From: an uncultured Candidatus Cloacimonadota bacterium
GTDB lineage: Bacteria; Cloacimonadota; Cloacimonadia; JGIOTU-2
Reading direction: 5' to 3'
Length of the DNA stretch: 64,000 nt
Assembly: GCA_964398885.1 (NCBI GenBank)
Contig: CAYNOU010000002.1
Location: forward strand, 22,762-86,761
Both the position numbers and the translations under genes were made by a program. The notes beneath the pieces are model-generated. The model was given only the letters and a program-made list of their open reading frames with translations, searched no databases and was not told the DNA's origin. Below are positions 49,233 through 63,617 of this stretch, one piece after another; the first letter of the stretch is position 1; each line of letters begins with the position of its first letter.

Positions 49233-52175
49233 ATGAAAAAGGTATTTTTGTTAGTTTTTATACTATTCTTGTTTATTTTACCATTAACATTATTTTCAAT
49301 TGAAACTGGAAATATTGCAGGAAAAGTTTATATTCAAAAAACAGAAAAACCTCTTTTTCAGGCAAATGTTTATGTGGAAGATTTAAAAACAGGAATGCTA
49401 ACAAAGGAAGATGGTAGTTTCATAATGAAGAATATCCCAGTTGGTATTCATACTGTAACAGTAAGTTTTATGGGATATGAAAAGTTATCTGAAGAGGTTG
49501 AAGTAAAACCTAATTTGACGACAACTGTAATATTTTCATTAAGAATGAAACCTATAGGTATCGCAGGTATTACAGTTACTGCTACCCGTGCAATAAAAAG
49601 AGAAACTCCTATTGCCTTTACTGATATTGAGATGGCAGAGATTTCTGACAAATATACAACACAGGATATGCCGCAACTACTGGAAGATGTTCCGGGATTG
49701 TTCTCAAGTACAACAGGTATTGGAGATGCACAGATAACAATGCGTGGTTTTGAAGCTGATAAAATCCAGGTTCTCATAAATGGTATTCCAGTAAATGACC
49801 CAGAAAGTCAAAATGTATATTGGTCAAACTGGACAGGTCTTTCATCTAATGTAAAATCCGTTCAGGTGCAAAAAGGCTCAGGGTCTTCACTTTATGGTTC
49901 CGGAGCTTTCGGTGGTTCCTTAAATATAGAAACAATTGGATCTATCCCGAATAGAGAATTCACTTTTAGATCATCCTTTGGTGGATATTCCACAGAAGGT
50001 GATGTCGCTGATGGTAAAGGAGAGATTACAGATTATAATCCCATAAATTATAACGCACTTTTTCGATATAATTCCGGTAATCTTTATGGTGGAAAATTCA
50101 ATTATAATGTAATGTTGGAAAGAAAAGCTGGCGATTACTACCTTGCTGGCACAGACTATAATGGTTATTCTTTCGGATTAGAAACTCAAAACATAATTGG
50201 TCCGCATAAGATCAATCTTAGCTTCATTGGAGCCCCTCAATATCATAACCAGGTTTATTTCAAATCAGACAGAAATTTAATGGAAACTCTGGGTCGTGAG
50301 TATAACAGAAACAATCATGAATACCAGGAAAATTACTATTTCAAACCCCAGCTTTCACTCAGAGATGAATGGAAAATTTCTGATAAACAACTTCTGATGA
50401 CAAATGTTTTTGTAACAAAAGGAAATGGTGGAGGAAAATATCTCAGCCAGGATAATTTTGATGTGGAAACTGGAGATATCAGTTTCAAGGAAATTCATTC
50501 AGCAAACGAAGAAAACATTACTTTCGGCAGACATGCTCGGTATATTTATCAAATTACTGATTCAACTATTATATTTGATGGTTACAATCCTTCTGATTCG
50601 AATTATTATGGTTACCCAACTTATAACGGTAAGATAATCACCTCCGGGGCAGACTTTTTTTCATCACCGGATAGATACGATTACAGTTGGAGAAATAATA
50701 GCATAAGTGATCATTCCCAATTGGGATTGAACACATATTATCAACATGATATAAACCCTATGTTGAAACTGGTTGTTGGTGGAGAACTGCGAAGATGGGT
50801 TGCTGATCATTACAGAAAAACAGAGAACTTCAGACATTTTAATCCTGAATTTCCAGATAGTGTGGAAACTTATGATGAAATCCAAAGACAATATGATGAA
50901 ACATCTACTGTTACTAATCTATCAGGTTTTGCCCGTTTTAGCATAAAACCTATTAAAAACATAAATATCATGATTGATGGACAACTGGCAAGCTATAACT
51001 CAAAAGTAGAAGAAAATCCCATTGAAATTTATGATTTGGGAACTGGAGAACCTACCGGATATTATTTCTATTCAACCAAAGAAATTAAAGATGATGATGG
51101 AAATTTAAAATTTACGAAAGATGATTATAAGAAAACATATAACTTTTTCTCTCCGAAATTTGGTATAAACTATAATATTTCAAAATACTTTAATATAATG
51201 ACAAATTATTCAATTTCCTATAAAGAACCCAGAACAATGGAATGGTACAGTGGTTATGACGGACCCGATGGAAATCAGAGGTACACACAGAATCTCGTAG
51301 GTGAAGATGCTTCTGGTTATTATGAATATTCAGAAGAAACGTTTTATGGTGAACTGAAACCGGAGAAGATCAATACAATGGAATTTGGTGTTGGTTATGA
51401 TGGTATTATTTTTGATGTGAATGCTAATTATTATATTAGCGATTATATAGATAAGATTGAATATGTTGAAATTCCAATAACTAATTACTACTATGATGAG
51501 CAAAATGATTCAATATATACTGTCCAAAGGGATGAAAACCTTACATTAAATGCAGGTAAAGCACAGCACCAGGGTTTGGAATTAAGCACTTCAGTAAATT
51601 ATGCTGATTTCGATTTCTCTTCTTCATTAACATTGGCAAGGTTTCGTTGGACAAAGATGAATATAGAAGAGATTTTTGGCATCAGTGCAGAAGAAATGGA
51701 AGGAAAAGTTGTTCCTTTCTCTCCTGAGAAAATGGCAAATGGTTCTATTGGATATACCTTACAAGGGTTACCAATGGATGGAAGATTGCGTATTGGTTTC
51801 ACAGCTAAGTACTGGGATGACTATTATGCCAACTACACAAATGAATATGACTGCATTGAAGATTTAGATGGTGATTTTATTGCAGACACAACTTCAGTAA
51901 AAAGCACCAAGCTACCCCATTTCCTGGAATTTGGCAGCAACATCAAATATGCATTTAAGATTGGAAATAAAGATGCATTTATACGCCTGGATCTAAATAA
52001 TATTACTAATCGAAAGGATAACTATTCCTCAGCAAATGTAAATAAAGACTACAATCGTGGTTATTATAATGAAGAAGGTGAATTTGTAGATGATTACCTG
52101 ACTGATAACGATTATATGTATGTTACACCTGCCCCTTTGTTTAATATTTTTTTAACATTTGAAATTAAATTTTAA
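49233..52175 (+). CDS. TonB-dependent outer-membrane receptor with an N-terminal carboxypeptidase-regulatory-like domain.
   Basis: Signal peptide. CarboxypepD_reg-like segment (GKVYIQKTEKPL...NIPVGIHTVTVSFMGYE). Plug (ITVTATRAIKRETPIAFTDI). A 22-strand-size barrel ending with ...TFEIKF, an aromatic C-terminus. Confidence 0.8.
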   Translation: MKKVFLLVFILFLFILPLTLFSIETGNIAGKVYIQKTEKPLFQANVYVEDLKTGMLTKEDGSFIMKNIPVGIHTVTVSFMGYEKLSEEVEVKPNLTTTVIFSLRMKPIGIAGITVTATRAIKRETPIAFTDIEMAEISDKYTTQDMPQLLEDVPGLFSSTTGIGDAQITMRGFEADKIQVLINGIPVNDPESQNVYWSNWTGLSSNVKSVQVQKGSGSSLYGSGAFGGSLNIETIGSIPNREFTFRSSFGGYSTEGDVADGKGEITDYNPINYNALFRYNSGNLYGGKFNYNVMLERKAGDYYLAGTDYNGYSFGLETQNIIGPHKINLSFIGAPQYHNQVYFKSDRNLMETLGREYNRNNHEYQENYYFKPQLSLRDEWKISDKQLLMTNVFVTKGNGGGKYLSQDNFDVETGDISFKEIHSANEENITFGRHARYIYQITDSTIIFDGYNPSDSNYYGYPTYNGKIITSGADFFSSPDRYDYSWRNNSISDHSQLGLNTYYQHDINPMLKLVVGGELRRWVADHYRKTENFRHFNPEFPDSVETYDEIQRQYDETSTVTNLSGFARFSIKPIKNINIMIDGQLASYNSKVEENPIEIYDLGTGEPTGYYFYSTKEIKDDDGNLKFTKDDYKKTYNFFSPKFGINYNISKYFNIMTNYSISYKEPRTMEWYSGYDGPDGNQRYTQNLVGEDASGYYEYSEETFYGELKPEKINTMEFGVGYDGIIFDVNANYYISDYIDKIEYVEIPITNYYYDEQNDSIYTVQRDENLTLNAGKAQHQGLELSTSVNYADFDFSSSLTLARFRWTKMNIEEIFGISAEEMEGKVVPFSPEKMANGSIGYTLQGLPMDGRLRIGFTAKYWDDYYANYTNEYDCIEDLDGDFIADTTSVKSTKLPHFLEFGSNIKYAFKIGNKDAFIRLDLNNITNRKDNYSSANVNKDYNRGYYNEEGEFVDDYLTDNDYMYVTPAPLFNIFLTFEIKF

Positions 52176-52312: not shown

Positions 52313-53302
52313 CTACTTCATTAAAATCATTTTCTTGGCAGAATGATATTGTCCTGTGTTAATTAGGTAGTAATAAATGCCACTTGAAACAGAGTTTCCA
52401 TTCTCATCAGAGCCATCCCAAATAACAGTATATTCTTTTGCACTACAATTTCTATCTAAAAGTGTCCTGATTTTTTGACCACTTACATTATAAACAGCAA
52501 TAGTAACATGAGATGGTTTTTTTAGAGTGAAAGCAATTTTTGTTTCTGAATAGAATGGATTCGGAAAGTTTGCTTGAAATACCGTATTAGCATTAATAGC
52601 ATTATCATCAACTGAACCAGGTTCTATTAAGTCATCTGGAGTTCTGGGATTCAATCCATATTCATCATAGCTATAATCAACACAACCTCTTATTATTTCC
52701 CATACCATACCCACAGTAATTACAATAGGTGGAACAACCTCGTCTAAATAAAAGAATCCATCATCAATTTGAGCAATTCCAGTACCATCATGAACTAACC
52801 ATTGTCCATATAAGTCTGGTTCTTGGATAACAGTTACATCATTCAACTCAACCAAAACACCTTCATAGGGTTCTCCAACACCCTCTGGGGCAAGGTCAGC
52901 ACAAGTGATAGAAGTTGCATCAGGAATAGGATTACCTGAACTCAATAAGGTTATAGTAATGGGGTCACTATAACCAGAAATTTCAGTCATTCCATAATAT
53001 TCATCTACAGTTCCTGTTACTTCTATTTCATCACCAGGAACGAGTGTTGTATCACCTGCCATATAAACAAGGATACCTTTCCAAGCACCACCTTCTGGCA
53101 TTGAAATAAAAAAGTTATCCTTATAATGTGCCCATTCTATAGCAGTAACAATTCCTGAAACTGTAACTACCAGTCCATCATAAGTTGAAGGATATGTATT
53201 ATCACTACCAGGTTCAGTTGTGTATTGAACCTTATAAATCGTTAAGGCAGAAAGACTTCCGACAAATAAGAATAAAACCAAAGCCATAACACACTTTTTC
53301 AT
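52313..53302 (-). CDS. Secreted protein with a T9SS (Por) C-terminal sorting domain.
   Basis: Signal peptide MKKCVMALVLFLFVGSLSA. The C-terminus FPNPFYSETKIAF...GIYYYLINTGQYHSAKKMILMK matches the T9SS C-terminal sorting-domain consensus. Confidence 0.6.
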   Translation of the reverse strand: MKKCVMALVLFLFVGSLSALTIYKVQYTTEPGSDNTYPSTYDGLVVTVSGIVTAIEWAHYKDNFFISMPEGGAWKGILVYMAGDTTLVPGDEIEVTGTVDEYYGMTEISGYSDPITITLLSSGNPIPDATSITCADLAPEGVGEPYEGVLVELNDVTVIQEPDLYGQWLVHDGTGIAQIDDGFFYLDEVVPPIVITVGMVWEIIRGCVDYSYDEYGLNPRTPDDLIEPGSVDDNAINANTVFQANFPNPFYSETKIAFTLKKPSHVTIAVYNVSGQKIRTLLDRNCSAKEYTVIWDGSDENGNSVSSGIYYYLINTGQYHSAKKMILMK

Positions 53303-53544: not shown

Positions 53545-54597
53545 TTATCTCATAATCACCATTTTCTTAACTTGAGAATTTTCTACACCACCGAGTTTAT
53601 AAAAATAAATTCCATTCTGAACTGGTATTCCATTATCATCCAGTCCATTCCAACCAACTGAACCAGAGTCGTTTTCTATCAGTAAGTTGCTGAATCCTTT
53701 AACCTTTTGTCCTTTAACATTATAAATTACAATATCTGCTTTTTGGGCCTGTTTTCTATTTAATCTATAGGAAATCACTGTAGTTGAATTAAATGGGTTT
53801 GGATAGTTTTGAATTAGTTTATATTCAGTTGAACTGATTGAGGTTTCATCAACATCTACAAAGGGTTGAGTAAGATATGAAAGATAAGAAGACATCAGAG
53901 TTGCTTTTGTATTGGGTCTGGCACCATCAATCATTGCTCCCAGAAGTGATGATGTAAAAATTGTATGATATTGACCTTCTCCGTCATAACAAACTCCACG
54001 ACCTTTTTCGTCCTGAGAAATGAAAAAGAGTGTACCTTTATCAGCCCCAATCTCATCAACTGAATAATCGGAGTCAGAACCATATTGATAATTAAACTCG
54101 TAGTCTTCTGCAAATGTTCCATCTACCCCAAACAAACTCTGAACATTATAAGCATAACCATCACCATCGTAATTACAACCGAAATAGCTAAAAAGGTCAG
54201 TAAAATAATGATCAGAAGCAAAGTCTACGCCCTCAACATAAACAGCTTTACCAGAATTCAAAAAATCAACAAGCCTTTGTTGCTCGACCGAGCCAATTAC
54301 TCCAGGAGGAGTAGAACCTCACCCCAAACACCAATGACCAAGTGTAACAAATATCAGGTCGTAATTTGATAGGTCTGAAGGTAAGTAAGAAAAAGTGGCA
54401 TAACTTTCACCATTAGTCATCAAAGCCTGTTGTAAAGCATATTGACAACCAACATATCCTGCTCCTTCTGGATCATTTATATAAGAACCATTATCGTTAT
54501 CCCAAATTAAAATTTCTAGTCCTATGACAATTTGAGGTATAATAAATAACATTATTACGAAACACAAAATTATTGAATATTGTTTAATAATTTTCAT
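53545..54597 (-). pseudogene. T9SS-sorted secreted protein interrupted by a single in-frame TGA (54319-54321). It is either a pseudogene or sequencing error, or a selenocysteine codon in a CLG-U context.
   Basis: The 92-aa ORF has a signal peptide and the 238-aa ORF has the T9SS C-terminal sorting domain. They are in the same frame and separated only by TGA: ...GHWCLG*GSTPPGVIG... It is adjacent to the sel operon. Confidence 0.5.
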
Positions 54598-54857
54598 GAT
54601 ACACCTCTTTTTGATTTTAATATCAAAATAAAAAACAAATTAATAAAATAATTGTCAAGAAAAATCTAACGATAAGCTTTCTAATAAAAAAATTTAACCC
54701 CAAATTTCGCGGAGTAGACACAAATTCACCCTGTTAGATGTTTACTATCTAACGGGGGAACCACAAAGATAATAAGTAACTCAGTGAATTCTGTCACGCA
54801 ATGTAGGGATTCTCTATGGTTAATTTCGGTTTATAGCTCTATAAATTTACTATCACT

Positions 54858-57056
54858 TTATTTAACAAAAATTTTTCCAGTGCCTTTGGAAATTACTTTT
54901 CCAATTTTTGAAAATCCTTGAATTCCCTTTTTCTGAAATTTGTCTATTAATTCTATACATTCATCTTCTGGAATAGAAACTAACAAACCACCAGAAGTTT
55001 GTGCATCGGATAAAAGAACTTTCTGAACATAAGAAATGGAAGAACTCCATTCTACAATTGGCTCAACAAATTTCAAATTGGATAAAGTCCCTCCAGGAAT
55101 GACATTTCCAGCTGCAAATTCAACTGCGCCATTAAGGAGTTTTACCTTGTCAGCAAATACTTCAACATTCACATCACTCGCTTTAGTCATTTCAGATAAA
55201 TGCCCCAATAAACCAAAACCCGTCACATCTGTGCATCCATGAACTGTAAAATCATTTAATATTTGAGATGTGTAATTATTCAAAGTTTCCATTGTCTCAA
55301 CTAATTCTGTTTTTTGACTTTCAGAAAGTAATCCTCTTTTTAAAGCAGTTGATAATATTCCTGTTCCAATTGGTTTTGTAAGAAGAATTACATCACCAAG
55401 TAGCATACCTACATTTTTCCAAATTTTTTCTGGATGAACAAGACCAACTACAACCATACCATATTTCGGTTCTGTATCTTCAATAGAATGTCCACCAATA
55501 ACAGTTATTCCCGCCTCTTTAGCTTTCTCATTTGCACCTTGTAAAATCTTCTCTAACACACTCATAGGTAACCGATTCGTAGGAAATCCAACTATATTCA
55601 ATCCAAATAATGGTTTTGCACCCATTGCATAAATGTCACTTAAGGCATTTGCTGTAGCTATCATTCCAAAATCAAAAGGATTATCTACAATAGGAGTAAA
55701 GAAATCCACAGTAACAACAACCGCAGTATTATCATCAATTTTATAAACAGCAGCATCATCAGCAGTATTTGTACTTACTAAAATATTAGTATCAACTGGA
55801 ATCGGCAATTTTTGTAATATTGTTTCCAATATCTGTGGTTCAATCTTACAAGCACATCCCATTCCGTGAGTAAAATGAGTTAATTTGATTTCTTCTCTCA
55901 TATCAATTATAATATGATCTTTCTTTGCTTGAAATTTTTGCACAGTTTTAATAATAATTTCTGCTGCTTGCTCAATTTCTTCTTCAGTTGTAAATTTACC
56001 CGTAGAAAATCGAATAGTTCCCATTGAATAATCGATAGGCACATTCATAGCTTGCAAAACAGCCGAAACATCTATCCTGTCAGAATGGCACGCAGCACCA
56101 GCAGAAGCTGCAACTCCACTCATTTCAGAAAGAATAGTGTTCGCTTCGATTTTATAAAATCCTAAACTTAAAGTATTAGGCAAACCTTTTTCTGGATGCC
56201 CATTCAAACGAAAATCAAGATTTGATTCAGTGAGCTTTTCATGTAACAGGTCCCTCATCTTCTTCATATGTTTACAATTTTTATCCAGATCATTACCTGC
56301 AATTTCGCATGCTTTACCTAAGCCAACAATTTCCAATACATTTTCTGTCCCGGGACGCAAATTCTGCTCCTGATTTGCTCCATGTATTAGTTTCTGCAAT
56401 CTTGTTCCTCTTTTTATATAAAGAGCACCAACACCTTTGGGTGCATATAATTTATGACCTGCAATTGAAAGGAGATCTACTCCTAATTCTTTTACATCCA
56501 CTTTAATTTTGCCCATAGATTGAGCTGCATCTGTATGGAAGTAAACATTGTATTTTTTTGCAACTTTTGATATGTCTTCAATTGGCTGAATCGTTCCAAC
56601 CTCATTATTTGCATGCATAATTGTAATCAAAATAGTTTGAGGAGTAATAGCTTTTTCAACATCATCTGGGTTAACCAAACCATATTCATCTACAGGTAGA
56701 TATGAAATATTGAGTCCCTGTGATTCTAAATATTCACAAACTTCTATTACTGAAGGATGCTCAATTGAAGAGGTTATAATATGATTTCCCCTATCTTTAT
56801 GAGACAATGCAATCCCTTTGATTGCAAAATTATTGGATTCAGAACCACCACTTGTAAAGATAATCTCATCAGAATGAGCATTAATCATATTTGCAACTTG
56901 TTTGCGTGCATTTTCAACAGCTTTTTTTGTTTGAATTCCATACCAGTGCATACTTGAAGGATTACCAAAATGATTATCTAAAAAAGGTCTCATAGCTTGT
57001 GCTACTTCAGGTGCAATTGGAGTTGTTGCATTATAATCTAAATATATTGGTTTCAT
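54858..57056 (-). CDS. selD: Fusion protein: NifS-like cysteine desulfurase / selenocysteine lyase (N-terminal) fused to selenide, water dikinase SelD (C-terminal).
   Basis: N-terminal half: LDYNATTP...SSMHWYG...FTSGGSESNN, a class V aminotransferase. C-terminal half: THGMGCACKIEP (the SelD GCxCK motif, Cys-type), then a PurM-like fold. 732 aa. Confidence 0.8.
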   Translation of the reverse strand: MKPIYLDYNATTPIAPEVAQAMRPFLDNHFGNPSSMHWYGIQTKKAVENARKQVANMINAHSDEIIFTSGGSESNNFAIKGIALSHKDRGNHIITSSIEHPSVIEVCEYLESQGLNISYLPVDEYGLVNPDDVEKAITPQTILITIMHANNEVGTIQPIEDISKVAKKYNVYFHTDAAQSMGKIKVDVKELGVDLLSIAGHKLYAPKGVGALYIKRGTRLQKLIHGANQEQNLRPGTENVLEIVGLGKACEIAGNDLDKNCKHMKKMRDLLHEKLTESNLDFRLNGHPEKGLPNTLSLGFYKIEANTILSEMSGVAASAGAACHSDRIDVSAVLQAMNVPIDYSMGTIRFSTGKFTTEEEIEQAAEIIIKTVQKFQAKKDHIIIDMREEIKLTHFTHGMGCACKIEPQILETILQKLPIPVDTNILVSTNTADDAAVYKIDDNTAVVVTVDFFTPIVDNPFDFGMIATANALSDIYAMGAKPLFGLNIVGFPTNRLPMSVLEKILQGANEKAKEAGITVIGGHSIEDTEPKYGMVVVGLVHPEKIWKNVGMLLGDVILLTKPIGTGILSTALKRGLLSESQKTELVETMETLNNYTSQILNDFTVHGCTDVTGFGLLGHLSEMTKASDVNVEVFADKVKLLNGAVEFAAGNVIPGGTLSNLKFVEPIVEWSSSISYVQKVLLSDAQTSGGLLVSIPEDECIELIDKFQKKGIQGFSKIGKVISKGTGKIFVK

Positions 57057-57058
57057 AA

Positions 57059-59002
57059 CTATCTTCCAATTTCTTTATACCCTTTTTCAGTAATAACTCT
57101 ATAATCCCCTTTTCGGATGGTAATACCTTCGCTATCAAATTGGGTAAGCATCAAAAGACATATTTTACGATTCCCTTCAATCAAATCGCGGAACTCAGAA
57201 ATTTTTATACCCTGAGGATTATCATTAAGATATTTTAATAGTTTTTCTCTTGCGCCATTAATAACAGAGGAATGAATAAAATTCCCATCAATATTACACA
57301 ACTTCCCTTTATTTATTAGCAATCCAATAATTTGTTTTATCTTCTTATCATTATAACCTTTTTTCTCAGCAATGGAGCATAAATCAGATAAGAGTGGGGT
57401 TTTCATCCCTGAATTTTTAAAGTAATTTTCCACAAATGCTATTTGCTTCTCATCATCTTTAGATATATTTAATTTATGGGTTTTCAAAGCCCATGTATTT
57501 TGGATTTGTTTTATTTTTCCTTCATCTTCAAGCTTTTTCATAATAATTTGAATCCATTTGTCATTTGATGAATCGTTTTTCATTCCAAACAAACCGACTA
57601 ATTCCTTAAAAGTTTTTCCCGTTTCTAAAAACGGATTTTTTTTATGATATTCTTTCAGATTTTCAAGAATCCTTTTTTCAGTTCTGCTTTTCTCTTCTTT
57701 TTTAAAAAGAAATATATTCTTATCTGATGATAGAATAGAAATATCTTCAGGTATAGACTTAAAAATTATCTCTCTAATTTTTTCTTCTGGTAAATTCAGT
57801 TTTTTTGCAATATATTCATAATTTAACGGATACAAACTTTTTCTAACTTCTGTAGCAATTAATTCAGATATATCACCAGAAGCAATTTTATAGAGCTTGT
57901 TAATTACATTTTCATTTCTTCTACGATGATGAAGTGGATGTGCATCAAGCACAATTCCCCCACCAAGAGTTAATTCGGACGAGGTATTTCGTAGAACAAA
58001 TTTATCACCGTAAAAAGCAATACAAGGAGAATCAAGATGTATCTGAACAATACCACTTTGTCTCGGTTTCAAAATTTCTTTATCAATAAGATGTATTTTT
58101 GCTTGTGCCTGCAATGTACCCAAAAGAAATATTGCTTGTGACCATCTGCCAAAACTGCTATTGTGATTAAACAAAGTAATTTTTGCATCAATCATATCTG
58201 TTGTCTGTAAAGGCATATTAGAGATAAGCATTCCTCTTGAAAAATTTTCTTTATTCAATCCTATCAGATTCAAAGAAGCTCTATCTCCAGCAGTTATTTC
58301 CTCAACCTGGGTTCCATGACGCTCCATTCTACGAATTCTCAACTTTTTTGCATTAGGCAGAAGATAAACTTTTTCATTATCTCTTAACTTACCACTAATA
58401 ACAGAGCCGTTTACAACGGTTCCAAAGCCTTTTACTGTAAATATCCTATCAATATACATTCTAAAAACATCACCAGTTGGTCGTTGTGGAATTTCTTCAC
58501 TAATTTTTACTAAAAGCTGCTTTAATTCCTCAATACCATATCCTGTTTTTGATGAAACTTTTATAATTGGAAATTCTTCAAGAAAAGTTCCTTTTATAAA
58601 ATCAGCAACTTCTTGTTCTACAATTTTGAGAAGCTCTTCATCTACAAGGTCAATCTTTGTTAAAGCTACAAATCCTTTTTTTATCCCAAGAATCTTCATA
58701 ACATTAAGATGCTCAACTGTTTGTGGCATAATTCCACTATCTGCAGCAATAACGAGCATAACAAAATCAATTCCGCTTGCTCCTGCAACCATAGTATTCA
58801 CAAAATCTTTATGACCAGGAACATCTATTATTCCAATACTCTGTCCATTTGGTAGCTCAATATGTGCGAAACCAAGATTAATGGTTATTCCTCTAATCTT
58901 TTCTTCTTTGTGAGTATCACATTCAATATTTGTTAAAGCTTTTATTAAAGCAGTTTTCCCATGGTCAATATGGCCTGCTGTTCCCATTATTAAATGTTTC
59001 AT
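57059..59002 (-). CDS. selB: Selenocysteine-specific translation elongation factor SelB.
   Basis: N-terminal G-domain MGTAGHIDHGKTALIKALT...DVPGHKDF...TKIDL. 647 aa with a C-terminal winged-helix extension. It lies between selA and selD. Confidence 0.85.
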   Translation of the reverse strand: MKHLIMGTAGHIDHGKTALIKALTNIECDTHKEEKIRGITINLGFAHIELPNGQSIGIIDVPGHKDFVNTMVAGASGIDFVMLVIAADSGIMPQTVEHLNVMKILGIKKGFVALTKIDLVDEELLKIVEQEVADFIKGTFLEEFPIIKVSSKTGYGIEELKQLLVKISEEIPQRPTGDVFRMYIDRIFTVKGFGTVVNGSVISGKLRDNEKVYLLPNAKKLRIRRMERHGTQVEEITAGDRASLNLIGLNKENFSRGMLISNMPLQTTDMIDAKITLFNHNSSFGRWSQAIFLLGTLQAQAKIHLIDKEILKPRQSGIVQIHLDSPCIAFYGDKFVLRNTSSELTLGGGIVLDAHPLHHRRRNENVINKLYKIASGDISELIATEVRKSLYPLNYEYIAKKLNLPEEKIREIIFKSIPEDISILSSDKNIFLFKKEEKSRTEKRILENLKEYHKKNPFLETGKTFKELVGLFGMKNDSSNDKWIQIIMKKLEDEGKIKQIQNTWALKTHKLNISKDDEKQIAFVENYFKNSGMKTPLLSDLCSIAEKKGYNDKKIKQIIGLLINKGKLCNIDGNFIHSSVINGAREKLLKYLNDNPQGIKISEFRDLIEGNRKICLLMLTQFDSEGITIRKGDYRVITEKGYKEIGR

Positions 59003-59188
59003 AATTTTTTACCGCGAATGTACGCTAATTTAAGCGAATATTTTTTCTTTGCCACGAATTTACCCCATGAAATCCTTCAAAGAAGGAATCCCAACACACC
59101 CGTTCTCCGTAGTCCCGATAAATCGGGACGAAGGATGAATCGGGATTATTTCACAGGGCAAGCACGAACTGGCACGAACATTTATGTA

Positions 59189-60577
59189 TCAATGTAAAAG
59201 GCATTTTTGTATTTCTTGTGATACATAATCTATATCTTCTTCATTAATTGTTAAAACATCAAAATGGATATTTCCTTCTCTGAGAATTCCAAGTATTGGC
59301 CTTTCTAAATGCAACAATTGTTTAAACAACTTTTCTGCAAAATTTTTCGTATTATCCTTGTTAATCAGCATTACTGAATAGCTATCTAATTTTAGACGAG
59401 GAAGGGTTCCTCCGCCACAATGTGCAATACTCTCTACTATTTCAGATTGTATATGAAATTTTGCTAACTCATTTTGTAATTTTTTTGCAATATTATAAAG
59501 CTCGGATTTACTTTTTTTTAGCATCCTATAAACAGGTATTTTTGTAAAAACATCTTCATCTTTAATATAATATCGCAACACTGTGGATAAAGCGGCAATA
59601 GTCATTTTACCCACTCGGAGTGCTCGCATAAGTGGAGCTTTTGAAAGTTTAGATATTAATTCCTTTTTACCTGCGATTATCCCTGCTTGAGGACCACCAA
59701 GTATTTTATCACAACTAAAAGTAACTAAATCTGTTCCGTAGTTTAGACTGGAAACAGCATCAGGTTCATTCCCAAAATGTAAATCTTTTTGTTTTCTTAT
59801 AAGTCCGGAGCCCAAATCATACATTAAAATCAGATTATATTTTCTTGCAAGCTTTGATAATTCTTTTAGTTCTACCTCTTCTGTAAAGCCTTCTATATAG
59901 TAATTTGATTTATGAACTTTTAAAATGATTCTTGTATCACCAGTAATTGCATTTTCATAATCTGATATTCTGGTTCTGTTTGTTGTGCCAACTTCAACCA
60001 TTTTTGCACCGCTTGCCTTCATTATATCAGGAATCCTGAAAGAACCACCAATTTCTATCAATTCTCCACGAGATATAATTGCTTCTTTATTTTCAGCAAA
60101 AGTTTTTAAACAGAGCAGGACTCCAGCGGCATTATTATTAACCACAACTGCATCTTCTGCTTTTGTAACAAATTTAATTAATTCTGAAATGTGTTTATTT
60201 CTCTGCCCTCTTTTACCTTTATCTAAATCAAATTCTAAATTAGAATATCCAAGTATGATTGGTTCTAATTCTTTTAGAACATCTTTACCAAGTGGAGCTC
60301 TTCCAAGATTTGTATGAAGTATAATTCCAGTTGCATTGACCATTGGTTTAAGTGATTTTTTGGTTATAGATTGGATAATAACTTTAATATCCTCAATAAT
60401 TTGGTTTAAGTTTTTTGCAGGCTTTGCTTTTAAAACATTTTTTCTATACTCATCCAAAATTTGTCTAATTGAATATGTAATCAAATCATTTCCAAATTTG
60501 TTTTTCAATTTCATTATTTCAGGATGATTTAATAATTTATCCACGCCGGGAATCTTTTTAAGTTCTTCTTTACACAT
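59189..60577 (-). CDS. selA: L-seryl-tRNA(Sec) selenium transferase (selenocysteine synthase).
   Basis: MCKEELKKIPGVDKLL...NATGIILHTNLGRAPL...NNNAAGVLL...RGELIEIGGSFRIPDIM...VGTTNRT are SelA hallmarks. The start is placed at ATG 60575-60577, because the track GTG lies inside a repeat. Confidence 0.85.
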   Translation of the reverse strand: MCKEELKKIPGVDKLLNHPEIMKLKNKFGNDLITYSIRQILDEYRKNVLKAKPAKNLNQIIEDIKVIIQSITKKSLKPMVNATGIILHTNLGRAPLGKDVLKELEPIILGYSNLEFDLDKGKRGQRNKHISELIKFVTKAEDAVVVNNNAAGVLLCLKTFAENKEAIISRGELIEIGGSFRIPDIMKASGAKMVEVGTTNRTRISDYENAITGDTRIILKVHKSNYYIEGFTEEVELKELSKLARKYNLILMYDLGSGLIRKQKDLHFGNEPDAVSSLNYGTDLVTFSCDKILGGPQAGIIAGKKELISKLSKAPLMRALRVGKMTIAALSTVLRYYIKDEDVFTKIPVYRMLKKSKSELYNIAKKLQNELAKFHIQSEIVESIAHCGGGTLPRLKLDSYSVMLINKDNTKNFAEKLFKQLLHLERPILGILREGNIHFDVLTINEEDIDYVSQEIQKCLLH

Positions 60578-60587
60578 AGTTAATCCT

Positions 60588-60648
60588 AAAAAATTTGCCA
60601 CAGATTTAGACCAATCAAAAAAATGATTACCTTTATTTCTGTGGCAAA
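60588..60648 (-). terminator. Hairpin (11-bp stem TTTGCCACAGA/TCTGTGGCAAA, about 32-nt loop) plus a U6 run between tRNA-Sec and the selA RBS. Terminator-like or a processing element.
   Basis: The minus strand reads tttgccacagaaataaaggtaatcatttttttgattggtctaaatctgtggcaaatttttt aggattaact ATG. It uses the family-B TTGCCACAGA motif as an inverted repeat. Confidence 0.4.
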
Positions 60649-60662
60649 CAATAAAATTATAA

Positions 60663-60757
60663 AGCCGAGAGGGCAGGAATCGAACCTGCCACAGACGGTT
60701 TTATCCGCCCACTACTGATTTTGAAGACCAGTTGGAACACCAGTTCCATCCTCTCAA
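60663..60757 (-). tRNA. selC: tRNA-Sec (selC), anticodon UCA.
   Basis: Minus-strand fold: 8-bp acceptor (TTGAGAGG/CCTCTCGG), 6-bp D-stem TGGAAC/GTTCCA with the 4-nt loop TGGT, 6-bp anticodon stem with loop CTTCAAA (UCA at 34-36), a long variable arm, and a 5-bp T-stem GCAGG/CCTGC with loop TTCGATT. About 94-95 nt. CCA is not encoded. Confidence 0.75.
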
Positions 60758-60795: not shown

Positions 60796-62730
60796 TTATC
60801 GCATTATCACCATTTTTCTTACCTGAGATTTTTCAGAATTAGAAATTTTATAGAAATATACACCATTGCTAACTGCATTTCCATTTGTATCTGTTCCATC
60901 CCAGACAATCTCACCATAATTTCCTTCAAAAGGAAGGTTATTAAATTCTTTTACAATATCACCTTTAATATTATAAATAATGATTTTTGATTTTCTACTC
61001 GGCTTTATGTTATAAGAAATATTTGTCTCGGAGTTAAATGGATTTGGAAAATTCTGCAGCAAGCCTGAATTGTTATTTATCGCAGAATCAACACTATGTG
61101 GTTGATCAAAATATAAAGCACCCATATCTGCAACAGTTCCATCAGGGTCTGGTGGAGAAGCTGGATCTCCTGCGTCAATACACGGAGAACCTTCTAATAA
61201 ACTCCAGGATGCTTCAAGACCATTGTAACTCGTTCCACTTCCTGCTGTTGGATTCTCAAACATTGGGTCTTCATTGATATTTCCAGTTCCACTATAACCA
61301 CCTGATATACAAGTATAGGTTACATAAACAGTACTACCAAATAGATTGAATACATCTAAGTCGTCAATTAGGATACAATTGTTAACTGTTGCAGAAGAAG
61401 ATGCAAACCACATTGCTCCATAACCATAGGTAGATTCATTATTTGCTATTGTGTTGTTAATCATAGTCGGGTTTGATGAGTTTTTTAAACTAATTGCACC
61501 AGCGAAACCTGCAGTATTATTAACGATTATATTATGAGAAATCAGAGGATTTGCATTATCACAAACAATTCCTGCACAAAGAATTGAACTTGTATTATTG
61601 GCTATTAGGTTTTTATAAATATACACACTATCTAAACCAATTACATTAATTGCTGCGCCTTTCTGGGTTGTAGTTAAATTCTCATAAATAGTGTTTTCAA
61701 TAATATCAACTTTTGAATTTTCAATATCTACTGCACAATAAGTGGCATTAGTTATTTCACAATTCTGAATAAGATTGTCTTCCATAGTATTAAAGAATTG
61801 AATACCTTTCCAACTATCATTTGATGTGAAAATTATAGGACCTTTTCCAGAAGCATCAGCAACTATTTTTCCTTCAACTTTTATCTTGCTATTATTATTT
61901 GTAATTATTTGAACATCAGGTTCAATAGTAAGTTCACAGCCATCTGGAATTGATACATCATCAGTGATAGTATAAGGGCTAAAAGCTGTATTCCAGACAC
62001 CAGCAACAGTTCCCGAAATATTATTACTATTAGTAACAGTGATGTAGTCCTCTTGAGTAATACTTGCACTATCAGCACCACTCCAAACAGTTAGAGATAC
62101 ATCATAAGATCCAACATCAGTATAAAGGAAAAATGGATTTTCTTCGTTACTGTCAATTAAGCCATCACCATCAAGATCCCAAGCCCATGTATCTGCACTA
62201 CCCGCTGTACTATGGAATTGAACTCCTAATGAAGGAGGTCCTGTTTGTATACTTGCATCAAATCCTGCCATTAATCCTAAAGATGCAATCGCATCATCTA
62301 AATATGTTGAGAAATTTACATTATTCTCACCATAATATAGTTGATATTCACCACCAATAACTGCAAAGAATGGTACATAGCCATTACCATAATCCCAATA
62401 TAAAGAGCTAATATCAGAAGAATGATAAAATGTACAATTATAAGGTGGAATACTCCAATCATTTTCAGATAGGAAGTAAACATGTCCACCGGGGTTATAT
62501 GTTTGCCACATAGCTTCTAATTGCGGCGCCGCCGCAACACAGCCACCTCAACTATAACCTCCCCAGAAAAAGACTACCGCTTTTTCTGCGTTGATCAATT
62601 CATATATTGAATGCGGTGCTCCAGTATTATCAGTCCAACTAAAATCATCTACAACATCGCCTACTTGGTATACTGCAAACAATGAACTTGCAAATACCAA
62701 AAATGCGAAAAGGGTAATTGCTTTTTTCAT
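60796..62730 (-). CDS. Candidate selenoprotein. Order of domains: signal peptide, thioredoxin/TlpA-like redoxin domain with a U-x-x-C motif (Sec at the in-frame TGA 62548-62550), PKD-like domain, beta-helix repeats, T9SS C-terminal sorting domain.
   Basis: The signal-peptide ORF and the 571-aa ORF are in the same frame and separated only by TGA: ...EKAVVFFWGGYS-U-GGCVAAAPQLEAMWQTY..., a redoxin pattern with FW..xCxxC. A SECIS-like hairpin starts 10 nt downstream. sel genes lie immediately downstream. The C-terminus FPNPFNSE...KMVIMR is a T9SS sorting domain. Confidence 0.6.
62521..62537 (-). promoter_or_regulatory. Putative bacterial SECIS element: GC-rich hairpin 10 nt 3' of the in-frame UGA.
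   Basis: Plus strand ttgcggcgccgccgcaa (8-bp inverted repeat). The mRNA reads UGA GGUGGCUGUG UUGCGGCGGCGCCGCAA. It is a conspicuous 100% GC core in a roughly 30% GC genome. Confidence 0.45.
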
Positions 62731-62876: not shown

Positions 62877-63617
62877 TTATCTCAAAAGTAGCATTTTTTT
62901 TGTTTCTTGATAACTCCCAACTTTTAATGAATAGAAATATATTCCGTTTGCAAGTTTTCTACCATTTGCATTTGTGCCATCCCATACAACTTCTTTAATT
63001 TTTTCCCGAGTATAATTGGGATTAATTTTTAATTCTTTTATTAGTTGCCCTTTCAGGTTGAATATTTCAACAATTGGGTCTTTATGTGTGGGTTTATCAA
63101 GATAAAATGAAATAGTTGTTGAAAAAGAAAAAGGATTGGGATAATTTTGTGATAAATTGCAAGTTAAGGGAATATTGACATCATCTATACTATTTTCTGT
63201 TGCATATGAAAAATTTATTGTATCTGGCTCACTAATTGAAGGGGACTCAAAGATGAACTGAAAGGTAAAACTTCCAGTAGAACTAACTGTTATGGTAAAA
63301 TCAAGATTAAGTGTATCACCACTTACAAATTCAAATTGCCATGGCCATCCGAGCATATGGCATACTCCTGAACCATGAAGTTCATGACACCAGATCATAG
63401 ACCAATCTGATGGTATATTTTGAGCTTCAACATTTACTGTGAATGTATCTGTTTGACCATTATTGATAACATAAAAAAAATCTGATGTAAAAATATAAGT
63501 GCTATCTGTATAAGGAGGTCCCACAACATTTGGATTGAATGGAATGTTAACTTCTAAGTCAGCAATGAGCAGATTTGCACAAAATAAGATTATTGATAAT
63601 GTTAATATTTTTTTCAT
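62877..63617 (-). CDS. Secreted protein with a T9SS C-terminal sorting domain.
   Basis: Signal peptide MKKILTLSIILFCANLLIA. C-terminus NYPNPFSFSTTISF...GIYFYSLKVGSYQETKKMLLLR. Confidence 0.6.
   Translation of the reverse strand: MKKILTLSIILFCANLLIADLEVNIPFNPNVVGPPYTDSTYIFTSDFFYVINNGQTDTFTVNVEAQNIPSDWSMIWCHELHGSGVCHMLGWPWQFEFVSGDTLNLDFTITVSSTGSFTFQFIFESPSISEPDTINFSYATENSIDDVNIPLTCNLSQNYPNPFSFSTTISFYLDKPTHKDPIVEIFNLKGQLIKELKINPNYTREKIKEVVWDGTNANGRKLANGIYFYSLKVGSYQETKKMLLLR

What the first reader, a model, noticed from the sequence alone, without database searches (positions are those of the whole stretch)
54858..57056. NifS-like cysteine desulfurase fused to SelD in one 732-aa polypeptide
The N-terminal roughly 380 aa are a class-V PLP enzyme (NifS/IscS/selenocysteine-lyase-like: ...SSMHWYG..., FTSGGSESNN). 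The C-terminal roughly 350 aa are selenophosphate synthetase with the THGMGCACK motif (Cys-type). NifS-like proteins are thought to deliver selenium to SelD, and fusions of the two have been noted only rarely. It is expressed directly after selB, with the selB stop at 57059 and the fusion start at 57056.
Basis: partly seen in the sequence, partly recalled or inferred. Interest (0 to 1): 0.55.

Follow-up and report, generated by a model that had tools for sequence, protein, structure and literature searches.

The report
NifS-like / SelD fusion in sel operon
One gene really does encode a selenium-mobilising PLP enzyme joined to selenophosphate synthetase, as the last gene of a selenocysteine operon, but this fusion was described in 2008-2015 and is common in uncultured anaerobes, so it is a sound annotation and not a discovery.

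Summary
Window 54858..57056 (-) is one uninterrupted 732-aa ORF. Residues 4-363 match Pfam Aminotran_5. Residues 433-732 match AIRS and AIRS_C, and SelD scores above the curated NCBIfam cut-offs. The gene starts 2 nt after the selB stop and closes a tRNA-Sec, selA, selB cluster.

PLP-Lys202, catalytic Cys323 and SelD Cys401/Lys404 are invariant in 120 homologue clusters. Five independent metagenome assemblies carry the identical sequence, so it is not a frameshift artefact.

The fusion is not new. It was reported in Geobacter sp. FRC-32, Caldithrix abyssi, Naegleria, Acanthamoeba and Spironucleus. It is not rare in data either: at least 120 clusters at 90% identity, and at least 43 species genomes from many phylum-level lineages.

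What I add:
- The NifS-like domain belongs to a subclade whose catalytic loop (GAACHSD) matches human selenocysteine lyase, not IscS.
- Unfused members of that subclade sit next to selD or selU in 2 of 7 sampled contexts.
- A related contig has selA, selB, Sec-type selD and an unfused nifS-like gene in the same slot.

Likely mechanism (inferred): Cys323 of the lyase domain hands selenium to Cys401 of the SelD domain.

In passing: two T9SS-tailed candidate selenoprotein genes flank the operon, one with comparative support.

The parts
54858..57056 (-). Complete nifS-like/selD fusion gene (732 codons plus TAA stop at 54858-54860)
   Evidence: Identical in 5 independent assemblies.
55929..57056 (-). 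N-terminal group-I NifS-like PLP domain, residues 1-376. Key residues: His100 (56757-56759), Pro101, Ala199, PLP-Lys202 (56451-56453), catalytic Cys323 (56088-56090), His324.
   Evidence: Pfam PF00266, E 1.4e-83. NifS, IscS and NFS1 are the best PDB and NCBIfam matches. Residues are invariant in homologues. Codon coordinates.
55890..55928 (-). Inter-domain linker, residues 377-389. Variable in sequence, nearly constant in length.
   Evidence: Column conservation 0.17-0.58 with at most 6 of 120 gaps. AlphaFold pLDDT below 50 at residues 379-387.
54861..55889 (-). C-terminal selenophosphate synthetase (SelD) domain, residues 390-732. The Gly-rich N-terminal loop is HGMGCACK: Cys401 (55854-55856) corresponds to E. 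coli Cys17, Cys403 to Cys19, and Lys404 (55845-55847) to Lys20.
   Evidence: TIGR00476 and NF002098 score above cut-off. E. coli SelD 3u0o residues 4-336 align to query 388-723, an offset of 384. Cys and Lys are invariant in 120 homologues.
57059..59002 (-). selB (647 aa). Its TAG stop lies 2 nt before the fusion ATG.
   Evidence: TIGR00475 scores 362.3 bits (cut-off 242.25). Pfam GTP_EFTU, Beta-barrel_SelB and SelB-wing_3.
59189..60601 (-). selA. The longest ORF starts at GTG 60601; an ATG at 60577 is a likelier start.
   Evidence: TIGR00474 scores 551.7 bits (cut-off 267.9). Sequence read.
60664..60757 (-). tRNA-Sec (selC), anticodon TCA, first element of the cluster
   Evidence: ARAGORN. 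Rfam RF01852, 58.3 bits against a gathering score of 47.
54697..54715 (-). Terminator-like hairpin followed by a T-run, 143 nt downstream of the fusion stop. Probable end of the operon.
   Evidence: Consensus scan only. Not proof of function.
53545..54597 (-). Context: downstream candidate selenoprotein gene. It has a signal peptide, a CxxU motif with in-frame TGA at 54319-54321, and a T9SS C-terminal domain.
   Evidence: The TGA and its flanking sequence are conserved in L096 and L097.
60796..62730 (-). Context: upstream candidate selenoprotein gene. It has a signal peptide, an AhpC/TSA-like N-terminus with UxxC (TGA at 62548-62550), a PKD domain and a T9SS tail.
   Evidence: Not confirmed by homologues.

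Best explanation
The gene encodes a genuine two-domain enzyme. A group-I NifS-like PLP-dependent selenocysteine lyase/cysteine desulfurase (residues 1-376) is joined by a flexible linker of about 13 residues to a Cys-type selenophosphate synthetase (residues 390-732). It is a member of the already described NifS-SelD (NifS-SPS) fusion family. Here it sits in a Cloacimonadota-like genome as the last gene of a selC, selA, selB, nifS-selD cluster, probably translationally coupled to selB.

Proposed mechanism:
1. The PLP domain removes selenium from free L-selenocysteine, or takes it from another low-molecular-weight selenium source.
2. Selenium is held as a Cys323-S-Se(-) sulfoselenide on the mobile active-site loop.
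3. It passes to Cys401 in the mobile Gly-rich N-terminal loop of the tethered SelD domain.
4. The SelD domain uses ATP to make selenophosphate for SelA, so free and toxic selenide is never released.

What is shown: the domain identities, intact catalytic residues, conservation of the architecture, and the operon context. What is inferred: the Se-transfer step, the substrate preference and the lack of free selenide. These rest on published work with separate proteins.
For: Domains and cut-offs.

Catalytic residues: His100, Lys202, Cys323, Cys401, Cys403 and Lys404 are invariant in 120 homologue clusters. Pro101, Ala199, His324 and Asp433, 434, 451, 474 and 610 are invariant in the 51-sequence alignment.

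Architecture is conserved. All top 120 clusters are fusions. The fusion spans one ORF in about 43 genome loci.

Operon context: tRNA-Sec, selA and selB lie directly upstream. The same order occurs in two Ignavibacteriaceae loci, L006 and L007.

A related contig, L085, has tRNA-Sec, selA, selB, Sec-type selD and an unfused nifS-like gene 73% identical to the N-domain. The two activities are therefore linked even when separate.

AlphaFold model: two confident domains (mean pLDDT 88.6). Exactly the Cys323 loop (322-328) and the linker (379-387) have low confidence, as expected for mobile Se-carrying segments.

Published work:
- E. coli NifS-like proteins supply Se to SelD (Lacourciere 2000, cited).
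- hSCL has a dynamic Cys segment proposed to deliver Se directly to SPS (PMC3266270).
- T. brucei SEPHS2 binds Sec lyase through its N-terminal region (PMC7595633).

The catalytic loop ASAGAACHSD matches human Sec lyase ASVGAACHSD and not IscS/NFS1 SSGSACTS.
Against: No biochemical data exist for any member of the fusion family (literature searches).

The residue equivalent to hSCL Asp146, the one shown to confer Sec specificity, is Pro101. It is neither the Asp of Sec-specific lyases nor the Lys of desulfurases. Substrate preference therefore cannot be read from sequence.

pTM is only 0.70.

Five of seven sampled unfused relatives are not next to selenium genes.

Other fusion-bearing genomes also carry a separate Sec-type SelD: L037, and Caldithrix and Geobacter. 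The fusion may therefore not be the main SelD everywhere.
Confidence: 0.75

Rival explanations
1. Recycling-only enzyme. The fused SelD can phosphorylate selenium only when its own NifS-like domain supplies it from selenocysteine breakdown. A second, canonical SelD (probably Sec-type) elsewhere in the genome does the bulk of selenophosphate synthesis from selenide. This is the speculation in Mariotti et al. 2015, Supplement S2.
For: Mariotti et al. note that every fusion-bearing species they saw also had another SPS gene. In locus L037 a Sec-type SelD (motif CAGUASK) lies convergent to and adjacent to the fusion.
Against: In the window the fusion occupies the selD slot of the selC, selA, selB cluster. 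In the related contig L085 the same slot holds a canonical Sec-type selD plus an unfused nifS-like gene. The fusion therefore looks like a replacement for both. No second selD is present in the 64-kb window, though the rest of the genome is unseen.
Confidence: 0.25
2. Housekeeping desulfurase that happens to be fused. The N-domain is an ordinary NifS/IscS-type cysteine desulfurase serving Fe-S cluster and thio-cofactor synthesis. The fusion only secures co-expression, with no direct Se hand-over.
For: The best NCBIfam hits are NifS, DndA and IscS, and all desulfurase catalytic residues are present. Most unfused close relatives sampled are not next to selenium genes.
Against: The score is below the NifS and IscS equivalog cut-offs. 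No NifU or IscU scaffold gene lies next to the fusion or next to any of the 7 sampled unfused relatives. Two of those 7 sit next to selD or selU. The catalytic loop and the residue before the PLP-Lys differ from IscS/NFS1, and the loop equals that of Sec lyase. The architecture and linker length are conserved across many phyla.
Confidence: 0.12
3. Assembly or sequencing artefact: a lost stop codon or a frameshift joins two adjacent genes.
For: None found.
Against: Five independent assemblies are identical over 4199 bp. At least 120 homologue clusters and about 43 genome loci carry the same single ORF with the same linker length.
Confidence: 0.01

Closest known systems
Published NifS-SelD (NifS-SPS) fusions: Geobacter sp. 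FRC-32, Caldithrix abyssi, Naegleria gruberi, Acanthamoeba castellanii, Spironucleus salmonicida (PMC2398784, PMC4561486 with Supplement S2, PMC3916229)
   Same: The order of domains is the same: NifS-like N-terminal, SelD C-terminal. As in Caldithrix and the protists, SelD has Cys at the Sec/Cys position. The fusion co-occurs with the Sec machinery. A Caldithrix sp. protein is 61% identical over 100% of the length (P0117).
   Different: The host lineage differs; the closest named relatives are Cloacimonetes at 89% and 80% identity. The position as last gene of a selC, selA, selB cluster was not reported for the published cases. The Geobacter protein carries Sec, whereas this one carries Cys.
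E. coli SelD working with separate NifS-like proteins (CsdB/SufS, CSD, IscS; Lacourciere et al. 2000)
   Same: The same two activities, and the same proposed flow of Se from a PLP-enzyme perselenide to SelD. The SelD domain aligns to E. coli SelD 3u0o over residues 388-723, with Cys17 and Lys20 conserved.
   Different: In E. coli the partners are separate, non-dedicated proteins. Here they form one polypeptide with a 13-residue tether.
Eukaryotic selenocysteine lyase (SCLY) with the SEPHS2 complex (human SCL structure PMC3266270; T. brucei SCLY-SEPHS2 complex PMC7595633)
   Same: Group-I fold (Foldseek TMt 0.88-0.90 to 3gzc and 3a9x). The catalytic loop core GAACHSD is identical, including the His after the catalytic Cys. 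The interaction involves the SelD N-terminal region, which here is the tethered end.
   Different: The specificity-determining Asp146 is Pro here, and Val256 is Ala. Overall sequence is closer to NifS, IscS and NFS1 than to SCL (359-318 bits against 244 bits). The link here is covalent, whereas the SCLY-SEPHS2 complex is non-covalent.
Ndh (NADH dehydrogenase-like)-SelD fusions
   Same: An N-terminal extra domain is fused to a Cys-type SelD. These fusions are widespread and presumed to feed reduced selenium to SelD.
   Different: The partner domain is a flavoprotein, not a PLP lyase. A CxxC motif is reported at the SelD site, whereas here the motif is GCACK, as in E. coli GCGCK.
SclA, the bacterial group-II selenocysteine lyase encoded near orphan selD in Enterococcus faecalis (NCBIfam NF040779)
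   Same: A PLP enzyme genomically linked to selD and proposed as a selenium donor.
   Different: It belongs to a different subgroup. The window protein scores 118.3 bits against a cut-off of 525. SclA is not fused.

Membership tests
Selenophosphate synthetase SelD (TIGR00476 / NF002098) | Whole-protein HMM score above the curated equivalog cut-off | tested here: met
   374.7 bits against 125, and 374.5 bits against 299
Selenophosphate synthetase SelD (TIGR00476 / NF002098) | AIRS plus AIRS_C two-domain fold | tested here: met
   PF00586 at residues 433-540 and PF02769 at 554-732. The AlphaFold model is confident over this region.
Selenophosphate synthetase SelD (TIGR00476 / NF002098) | Gly-rich N-terminal loop with Sec/Cys and Lys (E. 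coli Cys17, Lys20) | tested here: met
   HGMGCACK. Cys401 and Lys404 correspond to positions 17 and 20 by the 3u0o alignment offset. Both are invariant in 120 homologues.
Selenophosphate synthetase SelD (TIGR00476 / NF002098) | Selenide- and ATP-dependent selenophosphate formation | not testable with these tools
   Needs an enzyme assay or complementation of an E. coli selD mutant
Group-I NifS/IscS-type cysteine desulfurase (class-V aminotransferase fold) | PF00266 match with PLP-binding Lys in the GHK motif and the stacking His | tested here: met
   E 1.4e-83. His100, His201 and Lys202 are invariant.
Group-I NifS/IscS-type cysteine desulfurase (class-V aminotransferase fold) | Catalytic Cys on a long mobile loop (the group-I insertion) | tested here: met
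   Cys323 is invariant. The loop at 322-328 has pLDDT below 50. The region aligns without gaps to the IscS and NFS1 loop.
NifS proper (TIGR03402) / IscS (TIGR02006) | Score above the equivalog cut-off | tested here: not met
   487.5 bits against 530.75 for NifS, and 411.2 bits against 643.2 for IscS
NifS proper (TIGR03402) / IscS (TIGR02006) | Genomic partnership with a NifU or IscU scaffold | tested here: not met
   No NifU or IscU among the window neighbours, nor in 7 sampled contexts of the closest unfused relatives. The rest of the genome was not seen.
Sec-specific selenocysteine lyase (eukaryotic SCLY type) | Asp at the hSCL-146 position (necessary for Sec specificity, PMC3266270) | tested here: not met
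   Pro101 follows the stacking His100
Sec-specific selenocysteine lyase (eukaryotic SCLY type) | His directly after the catalytic Cys (hSCL His389) | tested here: met
   GAAC-H-SD, identical to 3gzc. His324 is invariant.
Sec-specific selenocysteine lyase (eukaryotic SCLY type) | Val before the GHK motif (hSCL Val256; Ser in desulfurases) | tested here: not met
   Ala199. This is non-polar like Val, but it is neither Val nor the Ser of NFS1.
NifS-SelD fusion family (Zhang 2008; Mariotti 2015) | Single ORF with the NifS-like domain N-terminal and SelD C-terminal | tested here: met
   Full-length homology of 60-89% to database fusions, including a Caldithrix sp. protein.
NifS-SelD fusion family (Zhang 2008; Mariotti 2015) | Occurrence in a genome with the Sec-decoding machinery | tested here: met
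   tRNA-Sec, selA and selB are adjacent. A flanking gene has a conserved in-frame TGA.

The most novel reading that the evidence does not exclude
The 'Pro/Ala/His' NifS-like subclade, fused or unfused, could be a bacterial group-I selenocysteine-lyase-type selenium carrier dedicated to SelD, and possibly to SelU, and not an Fe-S desulfurase. In this Cloacimonadota genome the fusion would then be the only SelD. All selenophosphate for Sec would be made from protein-bound perselenide and never from free selenide. The fusion would have displaced an ancestral pair of Sec-type selD plus nifS-like gene in the same operon slot.
Probability: 0.3. Interest if true: 0.55.

Novelty: new member of a known kind. 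Interest (0 to 1): 0.3.

Why it matters
How selenium reaches SelD without free, toxic selenide being released is still argued mainly from in-vitro mixing experiments and from one non-covalent complex, in trypanosomatids. A natural covalent NifS-like/SelD enzyme is a convenient object for structural and kinetic study of that hand-over. It is conserved across many anaerobic phyla and sits inside a sel operon, and no structure spans both domains.

For annotation, NCBI labels these 730-aa proteins simply 'selenide, water dikinase SelD', which hides the lyase half. The example in the window adds nothing fundamentally new. Its value is as a clean, operon-embedded representative.

Tried and rejected
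- Artefact hypothesis: rejected.
- Conserved gene neighbourhood of the fusion: I clustered all ORFs from 43 fusion loci. Nothing recurs beyond antisense shadow ORFs. Only L006 and L007 share the selC, selA, selB order, and L014 has tRNA-Sec nearby.
- Single origin of the fusion: an NJ tree of N-domains puts fused and unfused forms in one clade, separate from other NifS/IscS proteins but interleaved. The tree has no bootstrap, so this is unresolved.
- Organism identification by cluster look-up: no names were returned. Taxonomy rests on named homologues and T9SS neighbours.
- Inter-domain geometry: only pLDDT and pTM are returned, so the Cys323-Cys401 distance could not be measured. The Foldseek search against PDB found single-domain matches only.
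- SECIS hairpins after the two flanking TGA codons: hairpins exist, but the fold z-scores of -1.1 and -0.9 are not significant.
- Homologues of flanking candidate selenoprotein B: none in the loci held or in one metagenome scan.
- TGTGGCAAA motif: its count is within the range expected by chance (27 matches, 6 of 100 shuffles as many) in the window.
- SclA membership: rejected, 118 bits against 525.
- Biochemical characterisation of the fusion in the literature: none found.
Full report
1. THE OBSERVATION

The minus strand of the window carries one uninterrupted ORF at 54858..57056 (732 codons, ATG start, TAA stop).

Pfam places Aminotran_5 on residues 4-363 (E 1.4e-83), AIRS on 433-540 and AIRS_C on 554-732. 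NCBIfam gives SelD above both curated cut-offs: TIGR00476 scores 374.7 bits against 125, and NF002098 scores 374.5 against 299. The best N-terminal model is cysteine desulfurase NifS (TIGR03402), at 487.5 bits, just below its equivalog cut-off of 530.75.

The selB stop (TAG, 57061-57059) is separated by two bases from the fusion ATG at 57056-57054. Upstream lie selB (57059-59002), selA (59189-60601) and tRNA-Sec (60664-60757), all on the same strand. A terminator-like hairpin lies 143 nt after the fusion stop. G+C content is uniform at 29-35% across the region.

2. NOT AN ARTEFACT

The exact protein is found on independently assembled contigs from four JGI metagenomes and one SRA run. The DNA is identical to the window over 4199 bp. 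All 120 best clusters in the 5.8-billion-protein search are 710-752 aa and carry both halves.

In an alignment of these 120, PLP-Lys202, His100, His201, catalytic Cys323 and SelD Cys401, Cys403 and Lys404 are invariant. The linker (about residues 377-389) varies in sequence but hardly in length.

3. HOW COMMON AND WHERE

Named relatives are Candidatus Cloacimonetes (89% and 80% identity, so the window is most likely Cloacimonadota), Bacteroidales, Zixibacteria and Caldithrix. JGI already calls the protein 'cysteine desulfurase NifS/selenium donor protein'. NCBI calls it only 'selenide, water dikinase SelD'.

I scanned one genome per GTDB species with an alignment of the junction region. The lineages include Dehalococcoidales, Anaerolineae, 'Deltaproteobacteria', Calditrichaceae, Ignavibacteriaceae, Caldisericaceae, Zixibacteria, Cloacimonadales, several Bacteroidota, Phycisphaerae, Eisenbacteria, KSB1, Lentisphaeria, Actinomycetota, Neomarinimicrobiota and Myxococcota.

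At 50% identity the family collapses to about a dozen representatives. It is therefore compact and well conserved, but widely spread.

4. WHAT IS ALREADY PUBLISHED

- Zhang and Gladyshev reported a NifS-SelD fusion in Geobacter sp. FRC-32, with Sec in SelD (PMC2398784).
- Mariotti et al. 2015 added Caldithrix abyssi (Cys form), Naegleria gruberi and Acanthamoeba castellanii. They speculated that the fused SPS might act only on selenium delivered by its NifS part, because those species have a second SPS (PMC4561486 and Supplement S2).
- The Spironucleus salmonicida genome paper describes a fusion of the same two proteins (there the NifS-like part is said to be at the C-terminal end), and the same idea (PMC3916229).

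I found no biochemical or structural study of any fusion. No PDB chain covers both domains, by sequence or by fold (TM-score normalised to the query about 0.5 for all hits).

5. ANATOMY AND LIKELY MECHANISM

The N-domain is a group-I enzyme. It matches NFS1, IscS and NifS structures with TM-score about 0.9 to the target.

The SelD domain aligns to E. coli SelD 3u0o with an offset of 384, so Cys401 corresponds to Cys17 and Lys404 to Lys20. The conserved aspartates are invariant.

AlphaFold2 with a 51-sequence alignment gives mean pLDDT 88.6 and pTM 0.70. The only low-confidence stretches are 225-237, the Cys323 loop (322-328) and the linker (379-387). Both selenium-carrying segments are therefore predicted to be mobile. 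The SelD N-terminal loop starts only about 25 residues after the last NifS helix.

Three published results bear on the mechanism:
- NifS-like proteins can feed SelD (Lacourciere 2000).
- The dynamic Cys segment of human Sec lyase was proposed to deliver Se directly to SPS (PMC3266270).
- T. brucei SEPHS2 binds Sec lyase through its N-terminal region, occluding the PLP site (PMC7595633).

Taken together, the best-supported model is intramolecular or intradimer hand-over of Se from Cys323-S-Se(-) to Cys401, followed by ATP-dependent selenophosphate synthesis for SelA. This last step is inference.

6. NEW DETAILS FOUND HERE

(a) The catalytic loop ASAGAACHSD is identical in its core to human Sec lyase ASVGAACHSD. 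SCL was the only PDB sequence hit by that 23-mer. IscS and NFS1 have SSGSACTS.

At the three hSCL specificity positions (Asp146, Val256, His389; Lys, Ser and Thr/Ala in desulfurases) the fusion has Pro101, Ala199 and His324. All three are invariant in the family. Because the decisive Asp146 position is Pro, Sec specificity cannot be claimed.

(b) The same Pro/Ala/His signature marks a clade of unfused proteins of about 380 aa that are 65-74% identical to the N-domain. I sampled seven genomic contexts:
- One is tRNA-Sec, selA, selB, selD(Sec; AAGUAAK), nifS-like (L085).
- One lies directly after a fragmented selU (rhodanese plus AAA_SelU).
- One is divergent from a TehB-like methyltransferase.
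- Four show no selenium link.
- None has NifU or IscU.

(c) L085 is a fairly close relative: SelA 66%, SelB 57% and NifS-like 73% identity. Its SelD, however, is only 42% identical to the fused SelD domain. The Cys-type fusion and the Sec-type selD plus nifS pair therefore look like alternative occupants of the same operon slot.

(d) In L037 a Sec-type SelD lies next to the fusion. This matches Mariotti's observation and keeps the 'recycling-only' rival alive for some genomes.

(e) An NJ tree places fused and unfused N-domains in one clade, but interleaved. The number of fusion or fission events is unresolved.

7. COMPARISON AND VERDICT

The protein meets every testable criterion for SelD and for the NifS-SelD fusion family. 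It meets the fold and catalytic criteria of group-I desulfurases but not the NifS or IscS equivalog cut-offs. It meets only one of the three Sec-lyase specificity markers.

It is a new member, in Cloacimonadota and embedded in an operon, of a known but uncharacterised kind. The fusion is rarely discussed in the literature, but it is not rare in nature. I score interest at 0.3.

8. SEEN IN PASSING

Both flanks of the sel cluster carry genes with one in-frame TGA, a signal peptide and a T9SS C-terminal sorting domain.

The downstream gene (53545-54597) has a CxxU motif. Its TGA and the sequence on both sides are conserved in two other Cloacimonadota contigs. No Cys-form homologue and no Pfam domain were found for its body, so it may be an undescribed secreted selenoprotein family.

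The upstream gene (60796-62730) is AhpC/TSA-like with UxxC and has a GC-rich hairpin 11 nt after the TGA. It lacks comparative support.

Noticed in passing
window 53545-54597 (-); TGA at 54319-54321: The gene directly downstream of the fusion reads through one in-frame TGA. It joins a 92-aa ORF with a signal-peptide-like start to a 238-aa ORF with a T9SS sorting domain. The motif is GHWCLG-U-GSTPP (CxxU). The TGA and the flanking protein sequence are conserved in L096 and L097. All 10 database homologues are cut at the TGA, no Cys form was found, and the body has no Pfam domain. This is a likely secreted or surface selenoprotein of an undescribed family.
   Followed up: partly
window 60796-62730 (-); TGA at 62548-62550: The gene directly upstream of tRNA-Sec has a signal peptide and an AhpC/TSA-like N-terminus (24.8 bits against a cut-off of 26) with FFWGGYS-U-GGC (UxxC). 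PKD and T9SS-tail domains follow. A GC-rich hairpin (UUGCGGCG..CGCCGCAA) starts 11 nt after the UGA. No homologues were found in the loci held or in one metagenome scan, so it remains unconfirmed.
   Followed up: partly
L097 5737-7896 (+): On the contig that carries the 81%-identical fusion there is a further split gene with an in-frame TGA in VFSTSSG-U-PYC (thioredoxin-like UxxC). It also has a signal peptide, PKD and a T9SS tail. This suggests several T9SS-cargo selenoproteins in Cloacimonadota.
   Followed up: no
L085 261-5970 (+): An unfused version of the cluster: tRNA-Sec, selA, selB, a Sec-type selD (AAG-U-AAK, whose N-terminus the gene caller missed), then a stand-alone nifS-like gene 73% identical to the window's N-domain.
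   Followed up: yes
L037 8382-9440 (-): A stand-alone Sec-type SelD (VQCAG-U-ASK, CxxU) lies convergent to and adjacent to a Cys-type NifS-SelD fusion. Some genomes therefore keep both.
   Followed up: partly
L088 3857-4924 (+): Rhodanese and AAA_SelU fragments lie immediately upstream of an unfused Pro/Ala/His-type nifS-like gene. They look like a selU gene (tRNA 2-selenouridine synthase) broken by frameshifts in a long-read assembly.
   Followed up: no
L083 5312-5800 (-), L084 246-809 (-): A TehB-like SAM methyltransferase is divergently adjacent to the unfused nifS-like gene in two Deltaproteobacteria-type contigs. TehB is a tellurite/selenite-detoxifying type, a point from general knowledge.
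   Followed up: no
window 60594-60604 and 60638-60648: A perfect 11-nt inverted repeat (TTTGCCACAGA / TCTGTGGCAAA, 33 nt apart) lies between the 3' end of tRNA-Sec and selA and overlaps the GTG start of the longest selA ORF. It could be a processing or attenuation hairpin. An ATG at 60577 is a likelier selA start.
   Followed up: no
window 59003-59188: The selA-selB spacer is unusually long for an operon (186 nt). It contains short hairpins such as TCCCGATTTATCGGGA and repeated TTCGTG/TTCGCG motifs. Its function is unknown.
   Followed up: no
window 60664-60757 (-): Published work describes a 'Cloacimonetes-type' tRNA-Sec with a 7+5 (12-bp) acceptor/T-stem (PMC5330540). I did not check whether the window's tRNA-Sec has that structure.
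   Followed up: no
window 52313-53302 (-), 62877-63617 (-), 49233-52175 (+): The sel cluster is embedded among further T9SS-tail proteins. One has an ExeM/NucH-like nuclease N-terminus. A TonB-dependent receptor is also present. This is consistent with an FCB-group host.
   Followed up: no
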